A stretch of DNA of 64,000 bases from Caldilineae bacterium (GCA_011176545.1 DUEN01000009.1:9510-73509); one strand, 5' to 3'. Positions 6,101 through 36,662 are shown, counted from the first letter of the stretch. Notes: generated by a model from the letters alone, not told the origin. Numbers and translations are program-made.

Positions 6101-7612
6101 GCTGGATTATTGCGTCAGCGCGGCCATCGTGCCGTGTTGATCGCCAATACCCCGGGTGCGGCGCGCGAGGCCGGTGATCAATATATGGCGGATCTCACCA
6201 GCCCGGAAAGGGTGCAGGCCCTGCTAGCCGAGATCCGTCAGGCTCATGGCCCGATCGGCGGCCTGCTGCATCTGGCGCCGTTGAAGGGAGCGCGCGCCTT
6301 TGATGATCTTGACCTGGCGAGCTGGCGGGCGGCGCTCCAAGGGGATTTGGTCTCCCTGTTCCTACTGATTCAAGGGCTCCACGATGATCTTGTGGCTGCG
6401 GCCCAGGCTGGGGGCGCCTGTCTGTTGGCGGCTACCGGCATGGGCGGCACCTTCGCCAGTGGCGGTCACGACCGGGGCATCGGCTTCTTCCCCGGGGATG
6501 GCGGCATCGCCGGCCTGATGAAGACGGCCGCTCACGAACTGCTCGCCGTCCGGGTCAAGGTGATCGACTTCAAGCCTGGAGACGATCACGCCGCCGTTGC
6601 CCAGGCCGTCCTGCATGAGCTTTTCGCCGGAGATGGGCTAGTGGAGGTGGGGTATGATGGCGCGTTGCGTCGGATCTTACAGCCGGTGTTGGCGCCGGTA
6701 GACGATGCCACCCCCAGCCTTGAGCTCGATCCCCAATCGGTGGTCCTGATCACCGGCGGCGCGCGGGGGATCACGGCGATGGTGGCACGGGAGTTGGCCG
6801 CCCGGTATCAGCCGACCTTGATCCTGGTTGGGCGCTCGCCCCTGCCGCCAGCGGAGGAGTCGCCGACCACGGCCGGGCTAACCACCGCGCGGGAGATCAA
6901 GGCGGCCCTGATCAAATCACTGGGTGGCGATGGCCGCAAAGTGCCGCTGGCCGAGGTCGAGGCAGCCTACGCGCGGCTCCTGCGGGAGCGCGAGATACGA
7001 GCGAACCTGGAGGCGTTGAGGGAGGCCGGATCACATGTCGAGTATCACCCAGTGGACGTGCGGGACGAGGAGGCGTTCAGCAGGCTCATCGATGACATCT
7101 ACCGCCGGTTCGGCCGCCTGGACGGCGTCATTCATGGCGCCGGGTTGATCGAGGACAAGTTGATCAAGGATAAGCCCGTGGCATCGTTCCGGAGGGTGCT
7201 CAGCACGAAGGTGGACGCAGCCTTCACCTTAAGTCGCAAGCTGCGCCCGGAGACGTTGAAGTTCCTGGCCTTCTTCTCCTCGGTCAGCGGGCGATTTGGC
7301 AATCGTGGACAGGGCGATTACGCGGCGGCCAACGAGATCCTGAACAAACTGGCTGTCTATCTGGACCAGCGCTGGCCCGCCCGCGTGATGGCGATCAACT
7401 GGGGGCCATGGGAGGGGCCGGGGATGGTGTCGGAGGCGTTGCGGCGGGAATTCGCCCGTCGCGGCGTTGACCTGATCCCACCTGAGGTGGGGGTGCGAAG
7501 GTTCATCGAGGAACTTCGCTATGGCCGTAAGGGCGAGGCCGAGGTGCTGGTCTGTGGCGAGGGCACTCTAGCGATGATCAAAACGTCCGTGAGAGAGGCG
7601 AGCGGTGCATGA
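173..7612 (+). CDS. Giant iterative type I PKS / PUFA-synthase-like protein: NMO-like, PfaD-like ER, KS, AT, ACP, KR
   Basis: 2479-aa ORF. ER motifs (nitronate monooxygenase / PfaD type): YPIVQGPMTRVSD and FEGRECGGHVG. KS Cys-His-His: DAACGSSL, EAHGTGT, GSVKSMIGHT. AT: FPGQGSQ, GHSYGE, AFHS. ACP: LGIDSIKRVE. KR: ITGGARGIT, YAAAN. Start may be GTG 173 or ATG 185. Confidence 0.9.
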   Translation: MSASMTREFHVIVSTLPGFLEPSPAIAACRAGEWGILNLEYVEDDESALQAAATLAHYARGKYGLTLSCHQEALLSRLLGESPARPDMILLTGHDTHLLRQAIEAIHQKGLRVLLEVTDLEHARLGEELGVEGIVAKGYEAGGLVGRETAFVLLQHLLNHISLPIYVQGGIGLHTAAACYVAGAAGVLLDAQLALTRESRLPDAVRERIAAMDGSETICLGNDLGEAYRVYFKPGLKAVDELRRIEEELIDADLPAAEKVAAWRSAVEGRIGWAAPGRHVWPLGQDAAFAASLARRFVTVSGVLSAIRETIEAHCEAAARLRPLDEGSPLAQSHGTRYPIVQGPMTRVSDNAPFALEVARAGGLPFLALALMNGEDALLLLEETRRTLGQYPWGVGILGFVPPQVRQEQFEAIRATRPAFALIAGGRPDQARELEQEGIPTYLHVPSPELLRMFLADGATRFVFEGRECGGHVGPRSSFVLWEMLVDVLLAHLSSTNVDAQKFHVLFAGGIHDALSSSMVAALAAPLAERGVRVGVLMGTAYLFTREVVSTGAITPRYQQEALRGTTTVELETGLGHVTRCLPTPYVQTFIERKRSLLRENIPGDRLRQELEALNLGRLRIAAKGIARHPSDPGDPKTPRYVSLDEDEQYRQGMYMIGQVAALRDRVCTIEELHRDVSVKGTERLTALVARQYAERSLEAAEPASPRPSRIAIIGMACILPGATNLQAYWENILNKVDAITEIPPDRFDWRRYFDPDRHARDKIYSRWGGFIDEIPFNPLDYGMPPSSIPSIEPAQLLMLEVVRAALADAGYLERPFPRERTGVIVAAGGGLGDLGFLYCFRSFLPHFLDSSREVIERLKEMLPEWTEDSFPGILLNVLAGRIANRFDLGGPNYVVDAACGSSLAAVDAAVKDLETHRVDMAIVGAADTVQSPFAFLAFSKTQALSPSGRSRPFDANADGIAISEGIAVVILKRLEDAERDGDRIYAVIQGIGASSDGRDRGLTAPRPAGQLRALRRAYTKAGISPATVGLVEAHGTGTRVGDVVEVEALNALFQEAQSFPRSCAIGSVKSMIGHTKSTAGLAGLIKTALALYHKILPPTLVDEVNPDLCHEGSPFYVNTAPRPWLVAGDEVPRRAGVSAFGFGGTNFHAVLEEYRDAYGSELACLQTWPAELFILSASDQEALQAEVDRLIAWLAEGNEPPLRDLAYTLYTRYRQMSDAEGDEGEWWTAAVVATSLADLQEKLAQLQERMRAGEAQVWDARGIYFSREPLGRGGKRAFLFPGQGSQYLNMLRDLVMQFPRTREAFEEANRALAGQFPKPLSDYIFPPPACRRDELEAQQQALTDTRVAQPALGAADLAVADLLREMGVCPDFVAGHSYGEIVALCWAGVFDRYDLFAISEARGRFMAEATGLDSGAMAAVWAGRDEVATAMGGIEGVTLANMNSPRQTVISGATSAVEEAMRRLEALGIRARRLPVACAFHSPLVEPARDRLARFLRSVTFHAPRIAVFSNTLGDLYPNEPEHIREILSQHLARPVEFQQEIEAMYEMGARVFIEAGPRDILSGLVRQILEGRPHLAVAIDTRGPGLLSLQKALGQLIAAGIDVRLDPLFEGRRVARLDLARPYESPERARYGPTTWLVNGGRARPWRDGEGGESRPAVQPLQVRLVGEAPSSSDQPAARREATETSPAQGDVPAEGPIPVNPASSTSAPSEVAPADGGQTASVDDEVAGVMLQYQQLMGRFLEMQQNIMLTYLGDASAEGAGSAPPIPDISERPPELASEGPSPKPSSAPEKQVKAASEPEESKGTGAPTASALDEPSLAEMLLTLVSERTGYPKEMLDLDANLEADLGIDSIKRVEILGALRQRHSALEERITGPVMERLQAQQTLRGIIEAVMAEALSASKGATAQSQRAPGNDHSLENSERPITASAEGAAPISRYILRPVEVPPAEAEAALAPDRVILITDDGRGIAGEVAGLLRQRGHRAVLIANTPGAAREAGDQYMADLTSPERVQALLAEIRQAHGPIGGLLHLAPLKGARAFDDLDLASWRAALQGDLVSLFLLIQGLHDDLVAAAQAGGACLLAATGMGGTFASGGHDRGIGFFPGDGGIAGLMKTAAHELLAVRVKVIDFKPGDDHAAVAQAVLHELFAGDGLVEVGYDGALRRILQPVLAPVDDATPSLELDPQSVVLITGGARGITAMVARELAARYQPTLILVGRSPLPPAEESPTTAGLTTAREIKAALIKSLGGDGRKVPLAEVEAAYARLLREREIRANLEALREAGSHVEYHPVDVRDEEAFSRLIDDIYRRFGRLDGVIHGAGLIEDKLIKDKPVASFRRVLSTKVDAAFTLSRKLRPETLKFLAFFSSVSGRFGNRGQGDYAAANEILNKLAVYLDQRWPARVMAINWGPWEGPGMVSEALRREFARRGVDLIPPEVGVRRFIEELRYGRKGEAEVLVCGEGTLAMIKTSVREASGA
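194..1102 (+). other. N-terminal NMO/TIM-barrel-like domain 1 (degenerate ER-like)
   Basis: IVAKGYEAGGLVG and PIYVQGGIG motifs resemble the FMN-binding nitronate monooxygenase fold. It lies upstream of a second, better-conserved copy. Confidence 0.55.
1175..2242 (+). other. PfaD-like enoyl reductase (NMO family) domain
   Basis: YPIVQGPMTRVSDNAPFALEVARAGGLPFLAL, WGVGILGF, FVFEGRECGGHVGP, LFAGGIHD, GVLMGTAYLFT. Confidence 0.8.
2300..3637 (+). other. Ketosynthase domain (PKS1)
   Basis: IAIIGMACILPGA start, active-site DAACGSSL, HGTGT and GHT motifs, GFGGTNFHAVLEE end. Confidence 0.9.
3995..4912 (+). other. Acyltransferase domain (PKS1), malonyl-type by motif
   Basis: FLFPGQGSQYLNM, GHSYGE, ACAFHSPLV. 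Confidence 0.85.
5630..5872 (+). other. ACP domain (PKS1)
   Basis: LEADLGIDSIKRVEILGA; phosphopantetheine Ser codon at 5732-5734. Flanked by Pro/Ser/Ala/Glu-rich linkers. Confidence 0.85.
5990..7609 (+). other. Ketoreductase didomain (structural plus catalytic subdomain)
   Basis: VILITDDGRGIAGEVA (pseudo-Rossmann), then VVLITGGARGITAMVARELA, HGAGL, GQGDYAAANEILNKLA. Confidence 0.8.
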
Positions 7613-7621
7613 GAGGTGGGC

Positions 7622-10600
7622 ATGACGGTCAAGGGTAAAGGCGACGTCGCCATCATCGGGATGGCCTGCATGTTCCCAGGGGCTCCCGATCTGCAGACGT
7701 ATTGGCATAACATCTTGCATAAGGTCGACGCGGTGACGGATCCGCCCCCGGAAGCTTGGGATTCGGACGTGTTCTATGATCCCGCCTCCGATGCCCCGGA
7801 CAGGGTCTATTGCAAGCGGGGAGGCTATTTGGGGCCTCTGGCGAAGTTCAACCCCCTGGACTATGGGATCATGCCGGCCGGCCTGGACGGCGGTGAGCCG
7901 GATCAATGGCTGGCGTTGAAGGTCGCCCACGACGCCCTGGCCGACGCTGGCTATCTGGAGCGGTTGAGGGAGCATCCGGAGGAGCGCCATCGCACCGCCG
8001 TGATCCTGGGAAAGGGGACTTACCTGAACCGGGGCAACCTCAACATGGTCCAGCATAGCCTGATAGTTGAGCAGACCCTACAGATCTTGCAGACGTTGCA
8101 CCCCGAATATAGCCGGGAGGATCTGGAGCGGATCCGGGACGAGCTGCGGCGGGGCCTTCCGCCTTTCAACGCCGAGACCGCGCCAGGATTGGTCCCCAAT
8201 ATCACCGCCGGCCGTATCGCCAACCGCCTGGATCTCATGGGGCCTTCGTATACGGTGGATGCGGCCTGCGCGTCCTCGCTCATCGCCGTGGAGATCGCCA
8301 TGCGGGAGTTGCTCACGGGGAGGTGTGACCTGGCTTTGGTCGGCGGCGCTCAGGTCACCACGCCGATTCCGATCCTGAGCCTGTTCTGCCAGCTCGGCGC
8401 GCTCTCCCGCCGTCAGGAGATCCGCCCCTTCGATAAGAACGCGGACGGCACGATCCTGGGCGAAGGCATCGGGATCATTGTGCTGAAACGCCGCGAGGAT
8501 GCGGAGCGCGATGGCGATCGCATCTATGCCTTCATCAAGGGGGTAGGGACTGCCAGCGATGGCCGAGGCATGAGTGTACTTACCCCGCGCGTCGAGGGCG
8601 AGGTCCTGGCGTTACGTCGGGCTTATGAGGACGCTGGGGTCCCACCGGATACCATCGAGCTGATCGAGGCCCATGGGACGGGCACGCCAGTGGGAGATCA
8701 GGCGGAGATCCAGGCATTGCGAGAGGTCTTCGGCGAGCGGGATGGGCATCCCCCGCGTTGCGCGCTGGGCTCGGTGAAGTCGATGATCGGGCACACGATG
8801 CCGGCCGCGGGGATCGCCGGGATCATCAAGGTGGCCCTGGCCTTATATTACAAAGTCCTGCCGCCCACGATCCACTGCGATGAGCCTCATCCCAAGTTGG
8901 AGTTGGAGAAGACGGTCTTCTATATCAATCGGGAGGCCCGTCCCTGGATCCACGGTGTTCAGGATATACCCCGGCGGGCTGGGGTGAACGCCTTCGGCTT
9001 CGGCGGCATCAACGCCCACGTGGTCATGGAGGAGGCCCCGGAGGCGATCTTGCCCGGCCCCATGCGTCGCTGGGAAAGCGAGGTCGTGATCCTGGCGGCT
9101 GGCTCGCGGCCAGAGCTGATCGAGAGGGCGCGCTCGGTGAGCGCGTACGTTGAGGCCGTGTCGGATGTGTCTCTCCTGGATCTGGCGTATACCCTCAACT
9201 CCCAGATCAACGGTCAACCCTTCCGGCTGGCGGTGGTCGCCGAGTCCCCTGAGGACCTGCTCCAGAAGCTCGCCCGGGCCATCGCCCGTCTGGAGAGGCC
9301 TCAGACCCGCCAGATCAAGGAGGTGAGCGGGATCTACTTCTTCGAGGAGCCGCTTTATCCGGAGGGCAAGCTCGCCTTCCTCTTCCCCGGCGAAGGATCC
9401 CAATATCCCAACATGTTAGCCGACCTGTGCCTGCATTTTCCGGAGGTACGCGCCTGCTTCGATCGAATTGACCGCCTCTTTGCCGATCACCCGCGCGGTT
9501 ATCGGCCCAGCGATTTCATCTTCCCTCGCTCCGTGGGCCCTGGGGAGGAAGATCTAAGCCGGCATTTGTGGGAGATCGACGGTGCGATTGAGGCCGTGCT
9601 CACCGCGAACTCGGCCTTGTTCACTCTGCTCAGCGAACTGGGGTTGCGAGCGGACGCCATGGTCGGCCATAGCACCGGGGAATACTCGGCCATGCTGGCG
9701 GCCGGGGCCATCCCAGTGAACGAGGATGAGTTCGTCGGCCGCTATCTGGCCACCCTCAACCGTATGTATGAGGAGGTCACCGCGGAGGCCCATATCCCTC
9801 AGGCGATGATGATCGCCGTGGGCGCGGGGCTGGATCGGGTCCTGCCCATCATCGAACAGGTCGAGGGCGAGATCTACGTGGGCATGGATAACTGTCCCCA
9901 TCAGTCGGTGATCGTGGGGGAGAGAGCCGCCGTGGAGTCCGCCATGGCGATCATGAAGGATCAGGGCTTGATCTATGAGGCGCTGCCGTTTGAGCGGGCC
10001 TATCATACGCCGCTGTTTGCCCCTTACATGCAGCTCTTCCGGGACTTTTACGATCAATTGCCCCTGGCCGTGCCCAAAGTACGGCTTTACTCGTGCGTGA
10101 CCGCCGCGGCCGTCGATGGCGATGTGGCCGAGATCCGCAGGCTGGCCGTAGAGACCTGGGCTCATCGAGTGCGCTTCCGGGAGACCATCCAGGCCATGTA
10201 TGAGGATGGCATTCGCATCTTCGTGGAGGTGGGTGCCCGCGGCAATCTGACCGCCTTCGTAGGGGATATCCTGCGCGGCAAACCCCACTTGGCGATCCCG
10301 GCCAACCTTCAGCAGCGTTCCGGCATCACGCAGCTTAACCACTTGATCGCCCAGCTTAGCGCGCAGGGCGTGCCCATGGAGTTCGATCCCCTTTACCGTC
10401 GGCGCGCCCCCCGGCGACTGGAGTTAAGCGCGGCCGAGATCGCCGAAGCCCGAAAGAAATCCATTGGCGTGATGAAGCTGGCCACCGGTTGGGCCAGTAT
10501 GAGCCTCTCACCGGAGGTGGCCGCTGACGTTCGCCGCCACGTTGCCCCGTCCTCACCCCGAGAGCGCGAGGAAGGCCCCTCACAGCCTGAAGTATACGGG

Positions 10601-13180
10601 GCCGCGGGGATCGAGAAGGCTACTACGAGGCCAGAGCATGACCGGGATGCCCAAGCCGCATCCTCGCCCTTGCCAGACGTAGAAGTCTCTCATCCGAGGC
10701 GATCATCCACGCGTGCCCAGGTGATGCAGGCGCACCTGCGGCTCATGGAGCAGTTCCTGCGCACCCAGGAGACGGTCATGCGACGGTTCCTGGCTGGCTC
10801 GTCCGTCGCGCCATCCTCCCTGATGCCCCAGGCCGAAAGACCAACCGCTGCGGAGCCCTCTGAACCTGATGTGCCCGCCGGAGCGCTTGTGGAAGAGACT
10901 CAGGAGGCGGAGCGAGCATCCGATTCTGAGGTGAGCCAGGGACCGTCGGAAGCTGCCATGGAGGAGACTTCGGCGGAAGAAAAAAGCATCCAAAAAATAT
11001 TATTACATCTCGTGAGTGCGCAGACGGGTTATCCCGAGGAGATGCTGGATCTCTCGGCTAACCTGGAGGCCGACCTGGGCATCGACTCCATCAAGCGCAC
11101 GGAGATACTGGGGGCCTTCAATCGGGAGACCGGCCTGTTGGCTCCGGAGGAGATGGAACAGGTCACCTCCATGAAGACGCTGGGAGAGATTATCGATTTT
11201 TTCGAGCGGCGACAGGGAACACGGCAGATGGGAGGAGACGAACCCCCTCTGAAATGTGAGCGAACGCCAGCCGGGAGTGCGGCGCCTGAATCCCCCATCC
11301 ATTCAGATGACGGGGGTTCGACCCTCGTCGCCCCAAGCAGGGGGATCTCCGAAGACACGACAGGGCACGCGGAGGGGGCGCGGCCGCCTTCCATGCCTTT
11401 TATCCGTACCGTGCGCGCCTACGTCCCAGGACAGGAGCTAGACGCCATCTGCGTCCTCGACCTGAACGAAGACCTCTTCATGCGGGATCACACCCTGGGA
11501 CGGGACGTCTCGCGATTGGATCCGGACCTGCTGGCGCTGCCGGTGGTCCCCCTCACCATCAGCATGGAGATCCTGGCCGAGGCGGCCGCATCCTTGTTGC
11601 CGGACCTGGTGCTGGTAGGCATGCGAGAGGTACGGGCGTATCGGTGGATTCTAATGGAGGAAGGATCCATTTCCCTGCGGGTGGTGGCTAAGCGCAGGCC
11701 GGCTCCACAGGATCATGAGGTCGAAGTGTTTTTGACGGAAGCTGAGGGGGACGTATCCCCCCGTAAGCATCCGATCATCGAGGGCGTCATGGTCTTCGCA
11801 TCGTCCTATCCCGCCTCGCCGCCGGTGAGTGCGTTCTCGCTAAAGGGAGAGCGCCCCTCGCGTTGGTCGCCTCAGCAGCTCTACGCCGAGGGGATGTTCC
11901 ACGGCCCGGCCTTTCGAGCTGTGGAATCGATAGACAGATGGGGGGAGGACGGCGCCGTCGCCACATTGCAGGCGTTGCCCGTCGATCGGTTCCTGCGCTC
12001 CCAAGCCAGTCCGACCTTCATCGCGGAGCCCATCGTGCTCGACGCGGTGGGACAGATCGTGGGCTTCTGGACGATGGAGCACCTGGAGAGGGGTTTCGTG
12101 GTCTTTCCTTATTTTCTGGAGCGGCTGGATTTTTATGGGCCACCCTTATCCCTGCGAGAGCAGATCCGGTGCCAGGCACGTATCCGCCTGCTCGATGCAG
12201 GGCTGGTCCGCTCGGATTTCGATCTTATCGATCAGGCCGGCCGTCTGCGCATACGGCTCCAGGGCTGGGAGGACAAACGGTTCGATCTCCCCCGGCGATT
12301 TTACCGGTTCATATTGGATCCTGGCTCGCGGCGGCTCAGCGAGCCCTGGACGAAGCCGCTGGCCGGGCTCTCGGATGAGGCGCCCTATCGATGCCGCCGC
12401 GTCCACGGCTTTGCCGAGGGCTTCTTCGAGGCCCATTATGGCTTCTGGGAGAAAGTATTGGCCCACTTGGCCCTCTCTCGGACGGAACGCCAGGTGTGGC
12501 GGCGGAGGGAAGGGCCAGCCAGGCGCCGGATCGAGTGGCTGCTGGGCCGGGTAACCGCAAAGGAGACCGTCCTCGATCTTTTGCAAGAGCGATACGGCCT
12601 GGCCCTGTGTCCGGCGGACATTGAGATCGTTCAGGACGAGAATGGCCGGCCTCTGGTAAAAAGCGTGCGGCCTATTGAGCAGATCGATCGTCCCTTGGAA
12701 CAGTTGATCGCCGTCTCCATCAGCCACGCGGGCGGCATGGCCGTCGCTGTTGCTGGGCCAGCCGATGAGCCCATCGGGGTCGGCATCGACATCGAGCCGA
12801 TCCGCCGGCAGGACGAGGCGTTCGCGGAAGTGGCCTTTACCCCGCAGGAGCGGGCCTTGCTGGCGACGGTGGAGGAGGGAGGGGAGGCGGCCTGGCCGTT
12901 GCGTCTCTGGTGTGCCAAGGAGGCGGCGGGCAAAGCCCTGGGGCGCGGCCTGGTTGGAGGGCCACATGGGATCATCGTGAGGCGGATTGATCCCCGCACG
13001 GGGATCATGCAGGCGAGCCTGGCCGATGAGATCGCTCGCTCGTTCCCGGGAGCCGACGGCCAGGAGATTACGGTGTACACCGCCCGTGAGGGCGATATCG
13101 TTGTAGCTAGCGTGCTGGGTGGAGGTAGTCGTGAAAGGAGCTATGAAGACAAGGCACGAGGTTATGCAGGAAGTGCTTAG
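7622..13180 (+). CDS. Giant type I PKS-like protein: KS, AT, ACP, DH, Sfp-type PPTase
   Basis: ORF 7616-13180. ATG 7622 lies 5 nt after GAGAGG and 9 nt after the PKS1 stop. KS: DAACASSL, EAHGTGT, GSVKSMIGHT. AT: FPGEGSQ, GHSTGE. ACP: LGIDSIKRTE. DH: DHTLGRD...P and LDAVGQ. PPTase: GVGIDIEPIR and LWCAKEAAGKA. Confidence 0.9.
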   Translation: MTVKGKGDVAIIGMACMFPGAPDLQTYWHNILHKVDAVTDPPPEAWDSDVFYDPASDAPDRVYCKRGGYLGPLAKFNPLDYGIMPAGLDGGEPDQWLALKVAHDALADAGYLERLREHPEERHRTAVILGKGTYLNRGNLNMVQHSLIVEQTLQILQTLHPEYSREDLERIRDELRRGLPPFNAETAPGLVPNITAGRIANRLDLMGPSYTVDAACASSLIAVEIAMRELLTGRCDLALVGGAQVTTPIPILSLFCQLGALSRRQEIRPFDKNADGTILGEGIGIIVLKRREDAERDGDRIYAFIKGVGTASDGRGMSVLTPRVEGEVLALRRAYEDAGVPPDTIELIEAHGTGTPVGDQAEIQALREVFGERDGHPPRCALGSVKSMIGHTMPAAGIAGIIKVALALYYKVLPPTIHCDEPHPKLELEKTVFYINREARPWIHGVQDIPRRAGVNAFGFGGINAHVVMEEAPEAILPGPMRRWESEVVILAAGSRPELIERARSVSAYVEAVSDVSLLDLAYTLNSQINGQPFRLAVVAESPEDLLQKLARAIARLERPQTRQIKEVSGIYFFEEPLYPEGKLAFLFPGEGSQYPNMLADLCLHFPEVRACFDRIDRLFADHPRGYRPSDFIFPRSVGPGEEDLSRHLWEIDGAIEAVLTANSALFTLLSELGLRADAMVGHSTGEYSAMLAAGAIPVNEDEFVGRYLATLNRMYEEVTAEAHIPQAMMIAVGAGLDRVLPIIEQVEGEIYVGMDNCPHQSVIVGERAAVESAMAIMKDQGLIYEALPFERAYHTPLFAPYMQLFRDFYDQLPLAVPKVRLYSCVTAAAVDGDVAEIRRLAVETWAHRVRFRETIQAMYEDGIRIFVEVGARGNLTAFVGDILRGKPHLAIPANLQQRSGITQLNHLIAQLSAQGVPMEFDPLYRRRAPRRLELSAAEIAEARKKSIGVMKLATGWASMSLSPEVAADVRRHVAPSSPREREEGPSQPEVYGAAGIEKATTRPEHDRDAQAASSPLPDVEVSHPRRSSTRAQVMQAHLRLMEQFLRTQETVMRRFLAGSSVAPSSLMPQAERPTAAEPSEPDVPAGALVEETQEAERASDSEVSQGPSEAAMEETSAEEKSIQKILLHLVSAQTGYPEEMLDLSANLEADLGIDSIKRTEILGAFNRETGLLAPEEMEQVTSMKTLGEIIDFFERRQGTRQMGGDEPPLKCERTPAGSAAPESPIHSDDGGSTLVAPSRGISEDTTGHAEGARPPSMPFIRTVRAYVPGQELDAICVLDLNEDLFMRDHTLGRDVSRLDPDLLALPVVPLTISMEILAEAAASLLPDLVLVGMREVRAYRWILMEEGSISLRVVAKRRPAPQDHEVEVFLTEAEGDVSPRKHPIIEGVMVFASSYPASPPVSAFSLKGERPSRWSPQQLYAEGMFHGPAFRAVESIDRWGEDGAVATLQALPVDRFLRSQASPTFIAEPIVLDAVGQIVGFWTMEHLERGFVVFPYFLERLDFYGPPLSLREQIRCQARIRLLDAGLVRSDFDLIDQAGRLRIRLQGWEDKRFDLPRRFYRFILDPGSRRLSEPWTKPLAGLSDEAPYRCRRVHGFAEGFFEAHYGFWEKVLAHLALSRTERQVWRRREGPARRRIEWLLGRVTAKETVLDLLQERYGLALCPADIEIVQDENGRPLVKSVRPIEQIDRPLEQLIAVSISHAGGMAVAVAGPADEPIGVGIDIEPIRRQDEAFAEVAFTPQERALLATVEEGGEAAWPLRLWCAKEAAGKALGRGLVGGPHGIIVRRIDPRTGIMQASLADEIARSFPGADGQEITVYTAREGDIVVASVLGGGSRERSYEDKARGYAGSA
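7640..9040 (+). other. Ketosynthase domain (PKS2); active-site Cys present, so not a CLF
   Basis: VAIIGMACMFPGA, TVDAACASSL, EAHGTGTPVGD, SMIGHTMPAAG, GFGGINAHVVMEE. Confidence 0.9.
9368..10315 (+). other. Acyltransferase domain (PKS2), atypical specificity motif
   Basis: LFPGEGSQYPNM, GHSTGEYSA. RAYHTPLF sits where HAFH/YASH normally lies. Confidence 0.8.
10988..11215 (+). other. ACP domain (PKS2)
   Basis: LEADLGIDSIKRTEILGA; Ser codon at 11087-11089. Confidence 0.85.
11387..12295 (+). other. Dehydratase (double hot-dog, PKS-type) domain
   Basis: FMRDHTLGRDVSRLDPDLLALPVVP (His motif), GMFHGPAF, PIVLDAVGQIVGFW (Asp-x3-Gln motif). Confidence 0.7.
12458..13120 (+). other. Sfp-type 4'-phosphopantetheinyl transferase domain fused to the PKS2 C-terminus
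   Basis: WLLGRVTAKETVLDL, ENGRPLV, SISHAGGMAVAVAG, GVGIDIEPIRR, FTPQERALL, LWCAKEAAGKALG. Confidence 0.75.
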
Positions 13181-13427
13181 CCTGCTGGCGCAACTGGCCA
13201 GCGACTGGGAATACGATGGGGAGATCACCGAGGAGACCTACCTGTTCGCCGATCTGGGGTTTCAATCCCTGGATGCCGTCGTGCTGGGGAATTCCCTGCA
13301 GGAGCGGTTCGGCAAGCCAATCCCCTATGCCGACCTGCTGGCCGAGATCGGTCAGCGCGAGGTTCAGGATGTCACCATCGGTGAGTGGGTGGAGTTTACC
13401 TATAGACATCTACAGGATGGAGATTAG
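13143..13427 (+). CDS. Discrete acyl carrier protein
   Basis: ORF 13119-13427. ATG 13143 is preceded by AAAGGAG. FADLGFQSLDAVVLGNSL is a carrier-protein Ser motif. Overlaps the PKS2 3' end by 38 nt in another frame. Confidence 0.7.
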   Translation: MKTRHEVMQEVLSLLAQLASDWEYDGEITEETYLFADLGFQSLDAVVLGNSLQERFGKPIPYADLLAEIGQREVQDVTIGEWVEFTYRHLQDGD

Positions 13428-13449
13428 GGATTAGAGATTGGAGATGAGG

Positions 13450-15060
13450 ATGGGTGTAAAGTCGCTGTTGATCGGCCTCGATGGGGCCACGTTCACCGTC
13501 CTGGACCCCTTGATGGAACAGGGCGTGCTGCCGTTTTTGCGATCGTTTATGGAGGAAGGCGTGCGTGCGGGGCTGCGCACGGTGGTGCCGCCTTTGACCC
13601 CGCCCGCGTGGACTTCGTTGCTGACGGGGCGCACGCCGGGCCATCATGGGATCTTTGATTTCTTTCAGCTGGATGCGCCAGGCAGCAAACAGATTCGCCT
13701 GACCACATCTCACGACCTCCGCTGTGAAACCATCGCCCAGCTGGTGAATCGCTATGGACTGCGGGCCACTGTGCTGAACTTTCCGGTGCACTTTCCACCG
13801 CCTGCACTGGATGGGTACGTGATCGCCGGCTGGATGCCCTGGCGTCAGTTGCGCCTGGGATGCCACCCAGCGGATCTCTACGACCGGCTGAAGCAGCTAC
13901 CTGGATTTCATCCCCGGGAGCTGGCCATGGATATGTCGCTGGAGGCCAAGGCGACCGAGGGCTGCTCTGAGGATGAGTATGTGGACTGGGCCGAGCTGCA
14001 CGCCCGTCGGGAGCGACACTGGCTGGCAGTGGCGCGCCATCTGATCCAGAAAGATCCCACCGAGCTGGTCGCGATCTTGCTCGATGGCCCGGACAAGATC
14101 CAACACCTATGCTGGCGCTTCCTGGATCCATCGCTGTGGCCCGAGCGCCCCACGCCGGAGGAACGGCGGATCCGGGAGGCCTGCCTGGCGTACTTCCGCC
14201 AGCTGGATGGGGTGCTGGAGGAGATGGTGGCGATGGCCGGCCCCGAGGCCACGGTGGTGATCGCGTCGGACCATGGGTTTGGTGCCACGACGGAGGTGTT
14301 CCACGTCAACACGTGGTTGGAGCAGGCGGGCTATCTGGCCTGGTCCACGGAGGCGCCGGTGGACGAAGAGCAGGATGGCCTCCTGGGGATGGGGCATCTC
14401 TCCCGTCATACGCGTTGGCTGGACTGGGAGCGTACCCGGGCCTACGCGGCCACCCCCACCAGCAACGGCATCCATATCGTGACGGCGGAGCACAACGATG
14501 GCCACGGGGTGCGGCCCGAGGAGTATGCCCGGTTCCGCGCGGAGCTGGCCGATGCGCTGCGCAACGTCACCGATCCCGTTACCGGCGAGCAGGTGGTCTC
14601 GCGCATTTGGACGCGAGAGGAGGCCTTCCCAGGAGAAGCGGCTGGCTGCGCACCGGACCTCACCCTGGAGCTGCGGGACGGAGGTCTGGTCTCCATCCTG
14701 CCCGCGGATATGCCCTTACGGCCGCGCCCTCGGCCGGCCGGTGCCCACCGCCCCGTGGGCGTCTTCATCGCGCGCGGCCCAGGCATTCGTCAGGGGATGG
14801 CCTTCAAAGAGCTATCGATCCTGGATATGGCGCCCCTGTTGCTATACAGCATGGCGTTACCCGTCCCGGCGGATCTGGAGGGCCGCGTCCCCCTGGAGAT
14901 CTTCGAACCGTCCTTCCGGGCTAAGCGCCGGGTGGAAACAGCTCCGGCCGTGGGCCAACGGGAGCAGCTGTCCACCGATTCGGCCAGGGAATCCGCCTAC
15001 GACGAGGAGGCGGAGGCTGTGTTGGTGGCTCGGCTGCGAGACCTGGGATATATCGAATAA
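13450..15060 (+). CDS. Alkaline-phosphatase-superfamily enzyme, type I phosphodiesterase / nucleotide pyrophosphatase (NPP)-like
   Basis: LIGLDGATF and PPLTPPAWTSLLTGRTPGHHGI (Thr nucleophile context), VVIASDHGF. Start may be 13438, 13444 or 13450. Confidence 0.7.
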   Translation: MGVKSLLIGLDGATFTVLDPLMEQGVLPFLRSFMEEGVRAGLRTVVPPLTPPAWTSLLTGRTPGHHGIFDFFQLDAPGSKQIRLTTSHDLRCETIAQLVNRYGLRATVLNFPVHFPPPALDGYVIAGWMPWRQLRLGCHPADLYDRLKQLPGFHPRELAMDMSLEAKATEGCSEDEYVDWAELHARRERHWLAVARHLIQKDPTELVAILLDGPDKIQHLCWRFLDPSLWPERPTPEERRIREACLAYFRQLDGVLEEMVAMAGPEATVVIASDHGFGATTEVFHVNTWLEQAGYLAWSTEAPVDEEQDGLLGMGHLSRHTRWLDWERTRAYAATPTSNGIHIVTAEHNDGHGVRPEEYARFRAELADALRNVTDPVTGEQVVSRIWTREEAFPGEAAGCAPDLTLELRDGGLVSILPADMPLRPRPRPAGAHRPVGVFIARGPGIRQGMAFKELSILDMAPLLLYSMALPVPADLEGRVPLEIFEPSFRAKRRVETAPAVGQREQLSTDSARESAYDEEAEAVLVARLRDLGYIE

Positions 15061-15087: not shown

Positions 15088-15939
15088 GTGTCGATGATCT
15101 CTGTGAACGGCATCCGGTTCCATTATTGGACGGTCGGCCAGGGACCGGATGTGATCCTGTTGCATGGCCTGGGAGGTAACCTGGCCATCTGGCACTTGAA
15201 GATGGTACCTCTGCTGCGAAACATGTACCGTGTGACGACCTACGATCTGCGCGGCCACGGCTATAGCGATATGCCGCCCACCGGCTACACCACGGGCGAC
15301 ATGGCCGACGACCTGCGAGGCCTCATGGACGGGCTGGGGATCGAGCGGGCCCACCTGGTGGGCCACAGCCTGGGGGCGGATATCGCGCTCCACTTTGCCC
15401 TGCGTTATCCTGATCGGGCGGGCAAATTGATCCTAATCGAGGCTGGGCTCCCGGCCATGGTCAGCGCACGCAAGGACGAGAATTGGATCGGTTGGACATA
15501 CTGGGCGGAGATGATCGAGCGCTTCACCGGACACAAGGTGCCGCCGGAAAAGCGCACGGACTACAAGTATTTGCTGCGTCAGAGCCTAGAGATCCCGATC
15601 CTCTTCGGCCCGGCCCGAGGTAAACCGCGTAAACAGGAGAAGTTCCTGAAGCTGTTGGAGACGACGACCCTGGTGCAGGATTACGAGGTCGTCGGGGAAC
15701 TCACGCTGGAGAACATCGCCACGATCCCACATCCTAAGCTACTGATCTACGATACGAACTCGCCGTATCTCGAGACATATCGGGCGCTTTGTGAGGTGGC
15801 CAAAAACTATACGGCAGTGCTCTTACCAGGCAGCTCCCTTCGGCACTTCTTCCCCCTTGAGGAGCCTGAGAAGCTGGCGGAACACATCAAGGCTTTCCTC
15901 TCGCCGGAGGAAGAAGCGCCTGAGGGCGGGGGCGAATGA
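15088..15939 (+). CDS. Alpha/beta-fold hydrolase
   Basis: GTG start 6 nt after GGAGG. VILLHGLGGN, nucleophile elbow GHSLGA. Confidence 0.8.
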   Translation: MSMISVNGIRFHYWTVGQGPDVILLHGLGGNLAIWHLKMVPLLRNMYRVTTYDLRGHGYSDMPPTGYTTGDMADDLRGLMDGLGIERAHLVGHSLGADIALHFALRYPDRAGKLILIEAGLPAMVSARKDENWIGWTYWAEMIERFTGHKVPPEKRTDYKYLLRQSLEIPILFGPARGKPRKQEKFLKLLETTTLVQDYEVVGELTLENIATIPHPKLLIYDTNSPYLETYRALCEVAKNYTAVLLPGSSLRHFFPLEEPEKLAEHIKAFLSPEEEAPEGGGE

Positions 15940-16796
15940 GCAAGAGTGTGCTGATCACCGGCGCCGGGATGGGACTCGGCCTAGAGACGGCGCTTTACTT
16001 GGCCCAGCGGGGATTCACCGTCTACGCCAGCGTGCCTGAGGCGGCCCATCGGGACCTCGTGATGACGCGGGCGGCCGAGCAGGGCGTAACGTTGCACGTT
16101 CCACGGCTCGATGTGACCGATGAGGCGAGCATCCGGGAGACGGTGGGCACGATTCTGGCCGAGACAGGACATGTGTACGGCGTGGTCCACAACGCCGGGA
16201 TCAGCCTGCGTGGTTATTTCGAGGATTGCGAGGAGGAGGAGATCCGGCGAGTCATGGAGGTGAATTTCTTCGGTACGTTGGCGGTCACGCGGGCGGTCTT
16301 GCCGTCCATGCGCCAGGCCGGACAGGGACGTTTGATCTTCATCAGCTCCATCGGAGGCCGTATCGCCTCCATGGCGCGGACTGCTTATTGTGCCAGCAAG
16401 TTCGCGATCGAAGGGTTCGCTGAGTCGTTGATGCAAGAAGTGGCTCCGTTGGGGTTGCACGTTAGCATCATCGAGCCGGCCATCATTCGCACGGAGCGCT
16501 GGACGGTACATCGCGGGATCGCCAGGCGGGCATTAGACCCGGATAGCCCCTATCGGGAGTGGTTCCAGAGGCAAGAAGAACTGGCCGACGTGCTGGTGCG
16601 TACCTCGCCGACGAAGCCGATGCACGTGGCTCGAGTGGTATATCGGGCGTTAACCGCCAGGCGGCCCCGGTTACGTTACATGGTAGGCTGGCGGGCGAAG
16701 TCGGTATTACTCTTGCGCCGTCTCCTCCCGGGGGAGCTCTTCGAGCGATTCTACTTTGGGGAGGCGATGCGACGAGTGGCAGGATCGTCATCATAG
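15936..16796 (+). CDS. Short-chain dehydrogenase/reductase (SDR) 1
   Basis: ATGA overlap with the upstream stop. VLITGAGMGLGLETA, NAGI, YCASKFA (YxxxK). Confidence 0.85.
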   Translation: MSKSVLITGAGMGLGLETALYLAQRGFTVYASVPEAAHRDLVMTRAAEQGVTLHVPRLDVTDEASIRETVGTILAETGHVYGVVHNAGISLRGYFEDCEEEEIRRVMEVNFFGTLAVTRAVLPSMRQAGQGRLIFISSIGGRIASMARTAYCASKFAIEGFAESLMQEVAPLGLHVSIIEPAIIRTERWTVHRGIARRALDPDSPYREWFQRQEELADVLVRTSPTKPMHVARVVYRALTARRPRLRYMVGWRAKSVLLLRRLLPGELFERFYFGEAMRRVAGSSS

Positions 16797-16815
16797 GCGG
16801 AGGCGGATCGAGAAG

Positions 16816-17853
16816 ATGAGCGCTCTGTATTGGCTGCTCCGCCAACTTGGGCTCCGCCATATCGTGAGGCTTAACAAGGCCAAGCGGCTCAGCGATCGCT
16901 TCATTCGAGGGTTCTATGTGACCCATGCGTTGCTGGGACTCGCCAGCGTGGGGTTTCTCCAGGAGCTAGGGGATCAGGGTTCTGTGGATCTAGCGGAGTT
17001 CGCTTCGCGGGAGGGGATCGATTTGGAGATCCTGACCCCGCTATGTGAGTACCTGTACGGCCTGAAGATCCTACGGTGGGAGGGACAGCGTTACGCCCTG
17101 GATACGACGGGTGAGCTCATCAGCGATATGCTGATGGGGGCGTTGCTCTCGGTGCAGGCTTACGCGAACATCCTCTATCACCTGGAACCCCTGCTCCGCG
17201 GGCAGGAACACTACGGCAGCGAGGTAAGGCGCAGGCCACGTCTCGTCGCCGAGGGGAGCGGCCTTTCAGCTCAATTGCTGGCCTTCCCGCTCGTAGCCAG
17301 CCTGCTCCGGAAGAAGGGAAGCCGGCATGTGTTGGATCTGGCCTGTGGTGACGGGACGTTTCTCGAGGTCCTGTGTTCTCACGATGATCGCATCACTGGC
17401 TATGGGTTGGACATCGCGCCGGAGGCGATCGAGCTGGGCAGGCGAAGGTTGGCGACGCGTGGCCTGGAGGATCGGATTCACCTGTTCGTGGCCGATATGT
17501 TTCGCATCGATGAGATCACGTATCCCTTGCCGGAGATCGATGCGATCACCTGCATCTACGCTTTGCATGAATTTCTGACAGAGAACGGGGAGCAGGTCGT
17601 GGAGCTGTTGAGGAAGCTGCGGGGGCGGTTCCCGCAGACTCCTCTGATCGTGTGCGAGGTCATCCGTCACTCGCCGGATGAGCTGCGGCGAAAGCCGGGC
17701 GGCTTGCTCGAAATCCAGCTAGTGCATGCGCTTTCCGGTCAACGCCTGGGCACGCGACAGGAGTGGCGGGAGATCTTCCGGCGTGCTGGGTTCACAGAGA
17801 TGGAGGAACGATACCTGGGATTCGTTCGGACCGACATCTTCACAGTCCGATGA
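16816..17853 (+). CDS. Class I SAM-dependent methyltransferase with an N-terminal dimerisation / winged-helix-like domain (O-methyltransferase-like)
   Basis: VLDLACGDGTF SAM motif I, IYALHEF. ATG 16816 chosen within ORF 16756-17853. Confidence 0.75.
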   Translation: MSALYWLLRQLGLRHIVRLNKAKRLSDRFIRGFYVTHALLGLASVGFLQELGDQGSVDLAEFASREGIDLEILTPLCEYLYGLKILRWEGQRYALDTTGELISDMLMGALLSVQAYANILYHLEPLLRGQEHYGSEVRRRPRLVAEGSGLSAQLLAFPLVASLLRKKGSRHVLDLACGDGTFLEVLCSHDDRITGYGLDIAPEAIELGRRRLATRGLEDRIHLFVADMFRIDEITYPLPEIDAITCIYALHEFLTENGEQVVELLRKLRGRFPQTPLIVCEVIRHSPDELRRKPGGLLEIQLVHALSGQRLGTRQEWREIFRRAGFTEMEERYLGFVRTDIFTVR

Positions 17854-20842: not shown

Positions 20843-20849
20843 GGGCATC

Positions 20850-31818: not shown

Positions 31819-31823
31819 TCACG

Positions 31824-33308: not shown

Positions 33309-33336
33309 GTTCGACATGGGAGGTGAGGAAGCCGCG

Positions 33337-35169: not shown

Positions 35170-35174
35170 CTTTC

Positions 35175-36644: not shown

Positions 36645-36653
36645 TGCTAATAT
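36645..36653 (+). promoter_or_regulatory. Candidate extended -10 promoter element (TGcTAATAT) for the efflux operon
   Basis: TGCTAATAT at 36645-36653, about 65 nt upstream of ATG 36716. No good -35 seen. Confidence 0.35.
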
Positions 36654-36662
36654 GGAAGTGAA

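What the first reader, a model, noticed from the sequence alone, without database searches (positions are those of the whole stretch)
11387..13180. In-cis Sfp-type PPTase at the end of a KS-AT-ACP-DH protein (PKSE-like layout with the KR moved to the partner protein)
A C-terminal phosphopantetheinyl transferase fused to a PKS is characteristic of enediyne PKSE, whose established order is KS-AT-ACP-KR-DH-PPTase. Fungal FAS also carries one.

PKS2 has KS-AT-ACP-DH-PPTase. The only KR sits on PKS1. None of the enediyne accessory genes is nearby.

The PPTase motifs (GVGIDIEPIR, LWCAKEAAGKA) look intact. The system therefore appears self-activating for its three carrier domains: two in cis and one discrete.
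Basis: partly seen in the sequence, partly recalled or inferred. Interest (0 to 1): 0.65.

Follow-up and report, generated by a model that had tools for sequence, protein, structure and literature searches.

The report
ArsD-type dehydratase–PPTase tail on lipid synthase
The C-terminal carrier-protein-activating enzyme (PPTase) fused to this polyketide synthase is real and looks active, but it is the conserved end-piece of a very widespread, fatty-acid-synthase-like "secondary lipid" gene cluster related to the Azotobacter ArsA/ArsD system, not a rearranged enediyne synthase.

Summary
Observation confirmed. ORF 7616-13180 encodes KS-AT-ACP-DH-PPTase. The PPTase folds as a full two-lobed Sfp-type enzyme and keeps every catalytic residue (H1704, D1725, E1727, E1769, K1773).

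The enediyne (PKSE) framing is not supported:
- The partner protein (173-7612) is ER-KS-AT-ACP-KR, so the pair holds a complete fully reducing FAS-like set.
- No enediyne genes were recognised nearby.
- Both KS-AT units score best as PfaA-type.

The DH-PPTase didomain is colinear with ArsD orthologues of the phenolic-lipid ars operon: 30-31% identity over about 530-580 aa, E 2e-57 to 2e-60. PKS1 is 43% identical to an ArsA orthologue over about 2000 aa. PKS2's KS-AT-ACP is a paralogue of PKS1's.

The same gene order recurs widely: ER-KS-AT-ACP-KR | KS-AT-(ACP)-DH-PPT | ACP | phosphodiesterase | α/β-hydrolase. It has at least 507 relatives in GTDB species genomes across many phyla, and 1,666 protein clusters at E≤1e-30. 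DH and PPT lie in one ORF in all 82 loci examined.

A layout of fused pfaDA plus a PPTase-bearing second synthase is already described in the literature. Verdict: a new member of a known, product-uncharacterised kind. Self-priming of the three carrier domains is plausible but inferred.

The parts
173..7612 (+). PKS1, an ArsA-type megasynthase of 2479 aa. Domains: NMO/FabK-like enoyl reductase (aa ~100-623, nt 470-2041), KS (709-1218, nt 2297-3826), AT (1279-1569, nt 4007-4879), ACP (1825-1868, nt 5645-5776) and KR (2190-2414, nt 6740-7414).
   Evidence: Pfam. NCBIfam: TIGR02813 PfaA 1124 bits, FabK 335-623. KS Cys/His/His, AT GHSYG and ACP LGIDSIK motifs are present. It is 43% identical over 1992 aa to the B. 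indica ArsA-like protein.
7616..13180 (+). PKS2, 1854 aa: KS (aa 10-421, nt 7643-8878), AT (588-887, nt 9377-10276), ACP (1129-1194, nt 11000-11197), DH and PPTase.
   Evidence: Pfam. Catalytic motifs DAACASS, EAHGTG, KSMIGHT, GHSTG and LGIDSIK are present. The KS-AT-ACP part is 38.7% identical to PKS1 aa 711-1938.
11408..12295 (+). PKS-type double-hotdog dehydratase domain, PKS2 aa ~1265-1560. Catalytic His1292 lies in DHTLG; Asp1476 and Gln1480 lie in LDAVGQ.
   Evidence: Pfam PS-DH. AF2 model pLDDT 88.9. Foldseek matches PksJ DH1 8qk4 (E 8e-17, TM 0.74), CurF/J/K and the MAS-like DH. His is conserved in 82/85 and Asp in 85/85 relatives.
12431..13120 (+). Sfp-type (two-lobed) 4'-phosphopantetheinyl transferase domain, PKS2 aa ~1606-1835. 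Key residues: R1645, K1649, H1704, D1725, E1727 (motif at nt 12776-12805), E1769 and K1773 (motif at nt 12905-12937).
   Evidence: Pfam ACPS E 1.9e-18. TIGR00556 in two stretches. PptT alignment. AF2 pLDDT 90.4. Foldseek matches Sfp, PptAb and PptT over the full length. Residue conservation.
13119..13427 (+). Discrete acyl carrier protein (ACP3). This is the maximal ORF of 102 aa. The true start is probably a few codons downstream, overlapping or abutting the PKS2 stop.
   Evidence: Pfam PP-binding E 1.1e-5. NCBIfam ACP PRK05350. A gene of about 100 aa sits in the same position in L001 and L002 and in 48/64 loci.
13438..15060 (+). Alkaline-phosphatase-superfamily phosphodiesterase (NPP / phosphonoacetate-hydrolase-like), a conserved cluster member.
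   Evidence: Pfam PF01663 E 9e-38. PDB 3szy phosphonoacetate hydrolase and NPP match the N-terminal metal/nucleophile region. Present in 50/64 related loci.
15088..15939 (+). α/β-hydrolase, a candidate chain-release thioesterase or acyltransferase.
   Evidence: Pfam Abhydrolase_1/6, with a weak Thioesterase hit. Present in 55/64 related loci.
15936..18743 (+). Tailoring genes: SDR (15936-16796), SAM methyltransferase (16756-17853) and SDR (17763-18743).
   Evidence: Pfam and NCBIfam. The same order occurs in L001 and L002.
18611..24301 (+). U743 (18611-20842), a GT1/MGT-family glycosyltransferase (20808-22133) and U771 (21986-24301). U743 and U771 are paralogues of unknown function.
   Evidence: U743/U771 homologues occur in 39/64 related loci and the GT in 22/64.
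31809..39585 (+). Possible export functions that may belong to the cluster: MFS_2 transporter (31809-33308), HlyD-type adaptor (36716-38275) and MacB/FtsX permease (38299-39585).
   Evidence: Pfam. An MFS_2 gene also follows the cluster in L002. ABC/MacB-FtsX genes follow arsD in Azotobacter salinestris and B. indica. Membership of the cluster is inferred.

Best explanation
PKS1 (ER-KS-AT-ACP-KR) and PKS2 (KS-AT-ACP-DH-PPTase) together form a two-protein, iterative, fully reducing type I FAS/PKS of the PfaA-related 'secondary lipid synthase' kind. It is built from an ArsA-type protein and an ArsD-type DH-PPTase didomain. A duplicated KS-AT-ACP unit has been fused in front of that didomain.

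KR and ER lie on PKS1 and DH lies on PKS2. The two proteins must therefore act as a complex and share these activities in trans while extending malonyl units into a long, mostly saturated acyl chain.

The C-terminal domain is a catalytically competent Sfp-type PPTase. It uses CoA and Mg2+ to convert the apo carrier domains into their holo forms: ACP1 on PKS1, ACP2 on PKS2 and probably the adjacent discrete ACP3. This makes the cluster independent of a host PPTase.

The chain is then handed to or released via ACP3, the α/β-hydrolase and the phosphodiesterase. It is modified by the SDRs, the methyltransferase and the glycosyltransferase, and probably exported as an envelope (glyco)lipid.

Shown: domain content, fold, catalytic residues, homology to ArsA/ArsD orthologues, and conservation of the gene order. 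Inferred: PPTase activity and its targets, the trans-complex, the chain type, the release mechanism and the product.
For: - Domain content: Pfam and NCBIfam. Both KS-AT units score best against TIGR02813 PfaA.
- Catalytic motifs of both KS, both AT and all ACPs are intact.
- The PPTase is Sfp-type by fold and has the full H/D/E/E/K set.
- The DH is a PKS double hotdog with His/Asp.
- The DH-PPT model has pTM 0.88, which suggests a fixed didomain.
- ArsD link, Beijerinckia: the B. indica pBIND02 cluster encodes ER-KS-AT-ACP-KR, two type III PKS and a 629-aa DH+PPT protein. B. indica is listed with A. vinelandii as the phenolic-lipid 'Type P' cluster in PMC3098273. The window's DH-PPT is 31% identical to that protein over 534 aa, colinear, E 2e-60.
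- ArsD link, Azotobacter: an A. salinestris orthologue sits in an arsABCD-like operon and matches at 30% over 581 aa, E 2e-57.
- PMC4824345 calls ArsD the PPTase that would modify ArsA.
- PKS1 is 43% identical to the B. indica ArsA-like protein.
- Synteny ER-KS-AT-ACP-KR | KS-AT-(ACP)-DH-PPT | ACP | PDE | ABH holds across 82 loci from many phyla. DH and PPT are always in one ORF.
- 1,666 representative clusters match at E≤1e-30, and the didomain is C-terminal in all of the best 150.
[quoted passage not shown] It likens this to the uncharacterised Renibacterium secondary lipid synthase.
Against: - No biochemical evidence exists for this protein.
- Sequence similarity of the PPTase to solved PPTases is weak: best PDB phmmer E 0.003.
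- 12 of 85 relatives have lost catalytic residues yet keep the domain. The domain therefore also has a non-catalytic (structural) role, and priming in trans by another PPTase is possible in this family.
- The rest of the genome is unseen, so another PPTase may exist.
- PKS2 has no CLF and its DH is PKS-type, not FabA-type. The equation with 'pfaBC' in the literature is therefore only approximate.
- The original papers on A. vinelandii ArsA/ArsD domain structure could not be read. The ArsD link therefore rests on orthologues in Beijerinckia and other Azotobacter species.
Confidence: 0.8

Rival explanations
1. One reading: PKS2 is an enediyne-PKSE-like iterative synthase whose KR has moved to the partner protein. 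It would make a polyene-type product and self-phosphopantetheinylate as SgcE/CalE8 do.
For: It shares a C-terminal DH-PPTase and a PfaA-like KS-AT. From established knowledge, PKSE enzymes are themselves related to PUFA synthases, so a distant common origin of the DH-PPT tail is possible and was not tested.
Against: - The partner carries a PfaD/FabK-type ER and its own KS-AT-ACP.
- No KR lies on PKS2.
- Pfam recognised no enediyne cassette or hotdog thioesterase among the ORFs scanned between 13.4 and 62 kb.
- The closest characterised-system relatives found are ArsA/ArsD orthologues.
- The DynE8 KS-AT structure is not among the best 60 PDB matches, either for the whole protein or for the AT domain alone.
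- The gene neighbourhood conserved in 82 loci consists of lipid-type genes: ACP, hydrolase, SDR, GT.
Confidence: 0.04
2. The PPTase domain is mainly a structural or docking module. It might hold the DH, or bind the ACP or the phosphopantetheine arm. The carrier domains would be primed by a separate genomic PPTase.
For: - 12 of 85 relatives keep the domain although catalytic residues are replaced: SGKQN in Bryobacterales, MHEKK in Paludisphaera, and E to Q in several others.
- R1645 and K1649 remain invariant in 85/85.
- The DH-PPT model is a rigid didomain, pTM 0.88.
- The fusion is never broken in the 82 loci.
Against: In the window, and in 73 of 85 relatives, all catalytic residues are intact. 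The fold is a complete Sfp-type enzyme. ArsD is regarded as the PPTase for ArsA (PMC4824345).
Confidence: 0.12
3. The PPTase works repeatedly rather than once. Together with the adjacent discrete ACP3 and the conserved phosphodiesterase it would form a load-and-cleave cycle. In that cycle the PDE cuts the acyl-phosphopantetheine (or a mis-loaded arm) off the carrier protein and the PPTase re-primes it.
For: An ACP gene, a PF01663 phosphodiesterase with its nucleophile motif, and an α/β-hydrolase follow the PPTase in 48, 50 and 55 of 64 loci respectively. The three Bryobacterales loci with a degenerate PPTase (L043, L046, L070) show no downstream ACP3, PDE or ABH hits.
Against: - This is purely contextual.
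- Several clusters with an intact PPTase lack the PDE: Streptomyces L084 and the Isosphaeraceae loci L074, L076, L079 and L080.
- Paludisphaera L057 has a degenerate PPTase but keeps the PDE.
- PF01663 enzymes have many other substrates.
Confidence: 0.04

Closest known systems
ArsA/ArsD type I fatty acid synthase of the arsABCD phenolic-lipid operon (Azotobacter vinelandii; 'Type P' of Shulse & Allen 2011). Compared here through the orthologues in Beijerinckia indica pBIND02 and Azotobacter salinestris.
   Same: - ArsA-type ER-KS-AT-ACP-KR protein: 43% identity over about 2000 aa.
- ArsD-type PS-DH + Sfp-type PPTase didomain, colinear at 30-31% identity, E 2e-57 to 2e-60.
- KR/ER on one protein and DH on the other.
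- PPTase encoded in cis with the synthase.
- A glycosyltransferase and ABC/MacB-type export genes lie nearby.
   Different: - Here the DH-PPT carries an extra N-terminal KS-AT-ACP, a paralogue of PKS1's. In the ars operons it is a stand-alone protein of about 630 aa.
- There are no type III PKS genes here.
- A discrete ACP, a phosphodiesterase and an α/β-hydrolase follow instead, so chain hand-off and the product must differ.
Uncharacterised 'secondary lipid synthase' clusters with fused pfaD-pfaA and a PPTase-bearing second synthase. Examples: Shulse & Allen Type M (Renibacterium salmoninarum, Frankia, Streptomyces avermitilis) and the Aquimarina/Flavobacterium clusters in PMC13291983.
   Same: The layout described in the literature is the same: a fused ER+PfaA-like protein and a second multidomain protein ending in a PPTase. 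A Streptomyces plasmid cluster (L084) was checked directly. It encodes ER-KS-AT-ACP-KR, then KS-AT-DH-PPT, then ACP, α/β-hydrolase, GT and MT.
   Different: Sequences of the named Type M organisms were not compared directly. The window's PKS2 has no CLF and a single PKS-type DH, so it is not a literal PfaB-PfaC fusion. It also carries an in-line ACP and the PDE gene, which the Streptomyces version lacks.
Enediyne PKSE (SgcE, CalE8, DynE8)
   Same: An iterative type I synthase with a PfaA-like KS-AT and a C-terminal DH followed by an integrated PPTase that self-primes. The PKSE side of this comparison rests on established knowledge. The window side rests.
   Different: - PKSE is a single protein, KS-AT-ACP-KR-DH-PPT, with no ER domain in that order. 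It sits with the enediyne cassette.
- Here there are two proteins, an ER, two KS-AT-ACP units and a lipid-type neighbourhood.
- Direct sequence comparison was not possible.
Stand-alone Sfp-type PPTases (Sfp, PptT/PptAb, PcpS, PfaE, HetI)
   Same: Same two-lobed fold (TM to target 0.65-0.74) and the same catalytic residues.
   Different: This one is fused to the C-terminus of a DH. Sequence similarity is very low (phmmer E≥0.003). The N-terminal lobe is preceded by extra helices that pack against the DH (model).

Membership tests
Sfp-type (group II) phosphopantetheinyl transferase | Two-lobed pseudo-dimeric α/β fold of about 230 aa, as opposed to the ~120-aa AcpS unit. | tested here: met
   The AF2 model (pLDDT 90.4) aligns over 216-239 columns with Sfp, PptAb, PptT and PcpS (E 2e-10 to 1e-7). 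AcpS and the fungal FAS PPT cover only about 120 columns. NCBIfam TIGR00556 matches in two stretches.
Sfp-type (group II) phosphopantetheinyl transferase | Mg2+/CoA-binding and catalytic residues, equivalent to Sfp H90, D107, E109, E151 and K155. | tested here: met
   H1704, D1725, E1727, E1769 and K1773 are present. They align with the GIDxE and CAKEA motifs of mycobacterial PptT-type enzymes.
Sfp-type (group II) phosphopantetheinyl transferase | Transfers 4'-phosphopantetheine from CoA to an apo carrier protein. | not testable with these tools
   Needs an in vitro assay.
ArsA/ArsD-type (Type P) phenolic-lipid FAS | ArsA-like ER-KS-AT-ACP-KR megasynthase. | tested here: met
   Pfam. 43% identity over 1992 aa to the B. 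indica ArsA-like protein, which has the same domain order.
ArsA/ArsD-type (Type P) phenolic-lipid FAS | ArsD-like PS-DH + PPTase didomain. | tested here: met
   Colinear BLASTP: 31% over 534 aa, E 2e-60 (B. indica); 30% over 581 aa, E 2e-57 (A. salinestris).
ArsA/ArsD-type (Type P) phenolic-lipid FAS | Type III PKS genes (arsB/arsC) lie between or next to the FAS genes and receive the acyl chain. | tested here: not met
   No Chal_sti_synt or FabH-like hit among the ORFs scanned between 13.4 and 62 kb. None appears in the called genes of L001 and L002. The window is therefore a relative of the ars system, not a member of it.
Enediyne PKSE | One polypeptide with KS-AT-ACP-KR-DH-PPTase. | tested here: not met
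   PKS2 has no KR. The KR lies on PKS1 together with an ER and a second KS-AT-ACP.
Enediyne PKSE | Neighbouring enediyne cassette: a hotdog thioesterase plus the conserved accessory genes. | tested here: not met
   The neighbours are an ACP, PDE, α/β-hydrolase, SDRs, MT, GT and transporters. Caveat: some cassette genes may have no Pfam model.
Enediyne PKSE | Sequence and phylogenetic affinity of KS, DH and PPT to SgcE/CalE8/DynE8. | tested here: inconclusive
   No PKSE sequence could be fetched. The only indirect evidence is that DynE8 KS-AT is absent from the 60 best PDB matches of PKS2 and of its AT domain.
PfaA-related 'secondary lipid synthase' with fused pfaD-pfaA and a PPTase-bearing second synthase (Type M-like) | PfaA-type KS-AT, an ER fused N-terminally to the first synthase, and a second synthase ending in a PPTase. 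| tested here: met
   TIGR02813 is the best NCBIfam match for both proteins. Domain orders. Literature description. The same layout occurs in 82 loci.
PfaA-related 'secondary lipid synthase' with fused pfaD-pfaA and a PPTase-bearing second synthase (Type M-like) | Direct orthology to the named Type M clusters (Renibacterium, Frankia, S. avermitilis). | not tested
   Those sequences were not retrieved. A Streptomyces plasmid cluster of the same layout matches at 38% (KS-AT) and 30% (DH-PPT) identity.

The most novel reading that the evidence does not exclude
The family has 1,666 or more protein clusters and relatives in at least 507 GTDB species genomes across many phyla. Its conserved quartet of in-cis PPTase, discrete ACP, PF01663 phosphodiesterase and α/β-hydrolase may not be a one-off priming device. 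It could be a catalytic phosphopantetheine cycle. In that cycle the phosphodiesterase would release the finished chain as an acyl-phosphopantetheine, or edit a stalled arm, and the fused PPTase would re-prime the carrier each turnover. That would be a chain-release logic not known for FAS/PKS systems, making an as yet unidentified widespread envelope lipid.
Probability: 0.07. Interest if true: 0.75.

Novelty: new member of a known kind. Interest (0 to 1): 0.3.

Why it matters
For the finding as posed, the result is mostly deflationary. The fused PPTase is not a sign of an unusual enediyne-like synthase. It is the standard C-terminal module of ArsD-type proteins.

It is still useful to know three things.
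1. The DH-PPTase didomain is an evolutionarily inseparable unit. DH and PPT lie in one ORF in every locus examined here.
2. It defines one of the more widespread orphan lipid or polyketide gene clusters in uncultured Chloroflexota, Acidobacteriota, Planctomycetota, Actinomycetota and others.
3. The product and the roles of the conserved ACP, phosphodiesterase, hydrolase and U743/U771 genes were not identified in the literature searched.

A self-priming synthase is also practically convenient for heterologous expression of such clusters.

Tried and rejected
- PKSE comparison. No SgcE, CalE8 or DynE8 sequence could be obtained. The plasmid tblastn hits H6-H13 were a stand-alone PPTase in a type II PKS cluster. 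The PDB lists did not show DynE8 among the best 60.
- Original ArsA/ArsD papers. PNAS 2006, PNAS 2008 and the PPTase review are not held. I replaced them with direct analysis of the Beijerinckia and Azotobacter orthologues.
- The first locus search, with a 29-sequence alignment, failed because no stretch was conserved enough. It was redone with 15 sequences.
- A literature search on 'hglE-KS' was uninformative.
- Idea: the cluster makes the 1,2-diol membrane lipids of Thermomicrobia. The cluster is present in Nitrolancea and in Thermomicrobiales MAGs. However, it also occurs in many other phyla, and no paper links it to diols. It remains speculation only.
- U743 has no Pfam, NCBIfam or PDB sequence match.
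- Idea: the PPTase is AcpS-type or fungal-FAS-type. Rejected by the fold comparison.

Full report
**Observation**

The window holds two adjacent large ORFs on the + strand, 173..7612 (2479 aa, PKS1) and 7616..13180 (1854 aa, PKS2).
- PKS1 Pfam hits: an NMO/FabK-like enoyl reductase (aa ~100-623), KS (709-1218), AT (1279-1569), ACP (1825-1868) and KR (2190-2414).
- PKS2 Pfam hits: KS (10-421), AT (588-887), ACP (1129-1194), PS-DH (1420-1554) and ACPS/PPTase (1721-1792, E 1.9e-18).
- NCBIfam's PPTase-domain model TIGR00556 matches in two stretches, the best at aa 1617-1712. With the Pfam ACPS hit at 1721-1792 this indicates both halves of a two-lobed enzyme.
- The quoted motifs are present: GVGIDIEPIR at aa 1721-1730 and LWCAKEAAGKA at aa 1764-1774.
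- The finding's coordinates, 11387-13180, are aa 1258-1854, which is DH plus PPTase.
- The 'discrete' third carrier is ORF 13119-13427 (PP-binding).

**Is the PPTase real and intact?**

A phmmer search of the PDB gives only weak hits, but they are correctly aligned. The best are mycobacterial PptT-type enzymes at E 0.003. In those alignments the GIDxEP and CAKEA motifs line up.

An AlphaFold model of aa 1601-1854 is confident (pLDDT 90.4).
- Foldseek matches Sfp (4mrt, E 1.9e-10, 228 columns), PptAb (TM to target 0.74), PptT and PcpS over the full length.
- AcpS and the fungal FAS PPT domain cover only about 120 columns.

The domain is therefore a genuine Sfp-type, two-lobed PPTase.

In an alignment of 85 family members:
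- H1704, D1725, E1727, E1769 and K1773 are all present in the window and in 73 of the 85 sequences.
- R1645 and K1649 are invariant.

The DH is also convincing.
- The model of aa 1258-1854 has pLDDT 88.9 and pTM 0.88.
- Its N-terminal half matches PKS double-hotdog dehydratases: PksJ DH1 at E 8e-17, plus CurF/J/K and MAS-like DH.
- The catalytic His1292 and Asp1476 are conserved in 82/85 and 85/85 sequences.

**What family is it?**

I searched the protein collection with the DH-PPT region. It returned 90 hits, almost all with the PS-DH + ACPS pair. Many are stand-alone DH-PPT or ACP-DH-PPT proteins from Chloroflexota, Deltaproteobacteria and Planctomycetota MAGs.

They span Chloroflexota, Acidobacteriota, Planctomycetota, Actinomycetota, Nitrospirota, Desulfobacterota, Proteobacteria, Verrucomicrobiota and others. 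The best matches are Anaerolineae MAGs at 54-63% identity.

I mapped the window's domains and neighbouring genes onto the 82 loci held at that point. The gene order is strikingly constant: ER-KS-AT-ACP-KR (sometimes followed by DH) | KS-AT-(ACP)-DH-PPT | ACP | PF01663 phosphodiesterase | α/β-hydrolase. Variable SDR, MT, GT and U743/U771 genes follow.
- Among 64 loci with at least 4 kb downstream, 48 have the ACP, 50 the phosphodiesterase and 55 the hydrolase.
- DH and PPT lie in the same ORF in every locus. KS-AT is fused upstream in most loci and split off in about twenty.
- An exhaustive profile search finds 1,666 representative clusters (50% identity) at E≤1e-30. The didomain is at the extreme C-terminus in all of the best 150.

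The in-cis PPTase is thus a family trait, not a peculiarity of this window.

**Link to a characterised system**

A tblastn of the DH-PPT against plasmids hit Beijerinckia indica pBIND02. That locus encodes:
- a 2674-aa ER-KS-AT-ACP-KR protein;
- two type III PKS genes;
- a 629-aa protein made of PS-DH + ACPS;
- then a glycosyltransferase and ABC export genes.

B. indica is listed with Azotobacter vinelandii as the phenolic-lipid 'Type P' (ars) cluster by Shulse & Allen. They describe the two type III PKS genes as flanked by the FAS/PKS genes (PMC3098273).

The window's DH-PPT aligns colinearly with this ArsD-like protein: 31% identity over 534 aa, E 2e-60. PKS1 is 43% identical to the ArsA-like protein over about 2000 aa.

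Searching with the Beijerinckia protein returned 636-aa orthologues in Azotobacter chroococcum, A. salinestris, A. armeniacus and Azorhizophilus. The A. salinestris gene sits in an arsABCD-like operon: ArsA-like, two chalcone-synthase-like genes, DH-PPT, then ABC/MacB-FtsX. It matches the window at 30% over 581 aa, E 2e-57.

PMC4824345 states that ArsD is the PPTase that would modify ArsA. PMC6274091 summarises that ACP-bound fatty acids on ArsA are passed directly to the type III PKSs. I could not read the original PNAS papers.

PKS2's KS-AT-ACP is 38.7% identical to PKS1's over 1274 aa. The simplest reading is therefore an ArsA-type protein plus an ArsD-type didomain that has acquired a duplicated KS-AT-ACP.

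A Streptomyces plasmid carries the same layout: ER-KS-AT-ACP-KR, KS-AT-DH-PPT, ACP, hydrolase, GT, MT. [quoted passage not shown] It likens this to the uncharacterised Renibacterium secondary lipid synthase (PMC13291983). Renibacterium is in Type M of Shulse & Allen. An integrated PPTase in PfaC of Pseudoalteromonas DS-12 is also on record.

**The PKSE interpretation**

PKS2 lacks a KR. The partner is not a mere KR donor but a complete ER-KS-AT-ACP-KR synthase. The pair together has KS, AT, ACP, KR, DH and ER, which is a fully reducing FAS-like set.

Both KS-AT units score best against PfaA (TIGR02813). Pfam scans of the ORFs between 13.4 and 62 kb found no hotdog thioesterase or other candidate enediyne genes, and no type III PKS. 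DynE8 KS-AT is not among the 60 best PDB matches of PKS2 or of its AT domain.

I could not obtain a PKSE sequence. A distant common origin of the PKSE and ArsD-type DH-PPT tails therefore remains untested. Membership of the PKSE family fails on architecture and context.

**How it most likely works**

Both KS domains have Cys/His/His. Both AT domains have GHSxG. All three carriers have the serine motif.

I infer the following sequence.
1. PKS1 and PKS2 form a complex that shares KR/ER (PKS1) and DH (PKS2) in trans, and iteratively builds a long, largely saturated chain.
2. The PPTase primes ACP1, ACP2 and probably ACP3 from CoA.
3. ACP3, the hydrolase and the phosphodiesterase mediate hand-off or release.
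4. The SDRs, methyltransferase and GT1 glycosyltransferase tailor the product.
5. The MFS and HlyD/MacB-FtsX genes export it. Similar export genes follow arsD.

None of these steps is shown experimentally.

Two caveats apply.
- 12 of 85 relatives have lost PPTase catalytic residues but keep the domain, so it also has a structural role.
- The rest of this genome is unseen and may encode another PPTase.

**Novelty and score**

The fused Sfp-type PPTase after a DH is the hallmark of ArsD-type proteins. The two-protein layout is already described for uncharacterised secondary lipid synthases. This window is a new member of a known kind. Interest is 0.3.

What remains open belongs to the family rather than to this finding: the product, the role of the second KS-AT-ACP, and the conserved ACP, phosphodiesterase, hydrolase and U743/U771 genes. 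The most novel reading not excluded is a catalytic phosphopantetheine load-and-cleave cycle. I rate it unlikely, at about 7%.

Noticed in passing
window 13119-15939 (+): A discrete ACP, a PF01663 alkaline-phosphatase-family phosphodiesterase (nucleophile region conserved) and an α/β-hydrolase follow the PPTase here. They also follow it in 48, 50 and 55 of 64 related loci respectively. Their role (release, hand-off or head group) is unknown.
   Followed up: partly
window 18611-20842 and 21986-24301 (+): Two paralogous proteins of about 750 aa (45% identical), with repeated 'LYVGT'-type motifs that suggest a β-propeller. Neither has a Pfam or NCBIfam match, and the first has no PDB sequence match. 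Homologues lie downstream of the synthase in 39 of 64 related loci across phyla.
   Followed up: partly
related loci L043, L046, L070 (Bryobacterales), L057 (Paludisphaera soli), L016, L040, L071, L073, L082, L042, L012, L035: In these loci the PPTase domain is retained but catalytic residues are replaced (e.g. SGKQN or MHEKK instead of HDEEK; E1727 to Q). R1645 and K1649 stay invariant. The three Bryobacterales loci also show no downstream ACP, PDE or hydrolase hits.
   Followed up: partly
window 173-2041 (+), N-terminus of PKS1: The enoyl-reductase region gives two separate NMO/FabK-like stretches (about aa 100-212 and 335-623). There may therefore be an extra partial TIM-barrel ahead of the PfaD-like ER. 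The same two-stretch pattern appears in the Beijerinckia and Streptomyces homologues.
   Followed up: no
window 31809-33308 and 36716-39585 (+): An MFS_2 transporter and a HlyD-type adaptor plus MacB/FtsX permease. From memory, this resembles the DevBCA glycolipid exporters of cyanobacteria. ABC/MacB-FtsX genes also follow arsD in Azotobacter salinestris and Beijerinckia indica.
   Followed up: no
window 53162-62104 (+): A VWA-domain protein (1089 aa) followed by two large proteins with the bacterial tubulin-like domain PF13809 (E 4e-63 and 5e-7). This is an uncommon trio, unrelated to the synthase.
   Followed up: no
window 43842-45380 (-): A 512-aa ORF with a Baseplate_J-like domain (E 4e-10), lying between the YceG/MltG gene and alaS. 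Only these two neighbours were scanned, and no other phage-like gene was seen among them.
   Followed up: no
window 26507-27847 and 24382-26388 (+): A sulfatase-family enzyme and an SdrD_B/SpaA-fold surface-type protein lie just downstream of the lipid cluster. Whether they belong to it is unknown.
   Followed up: no
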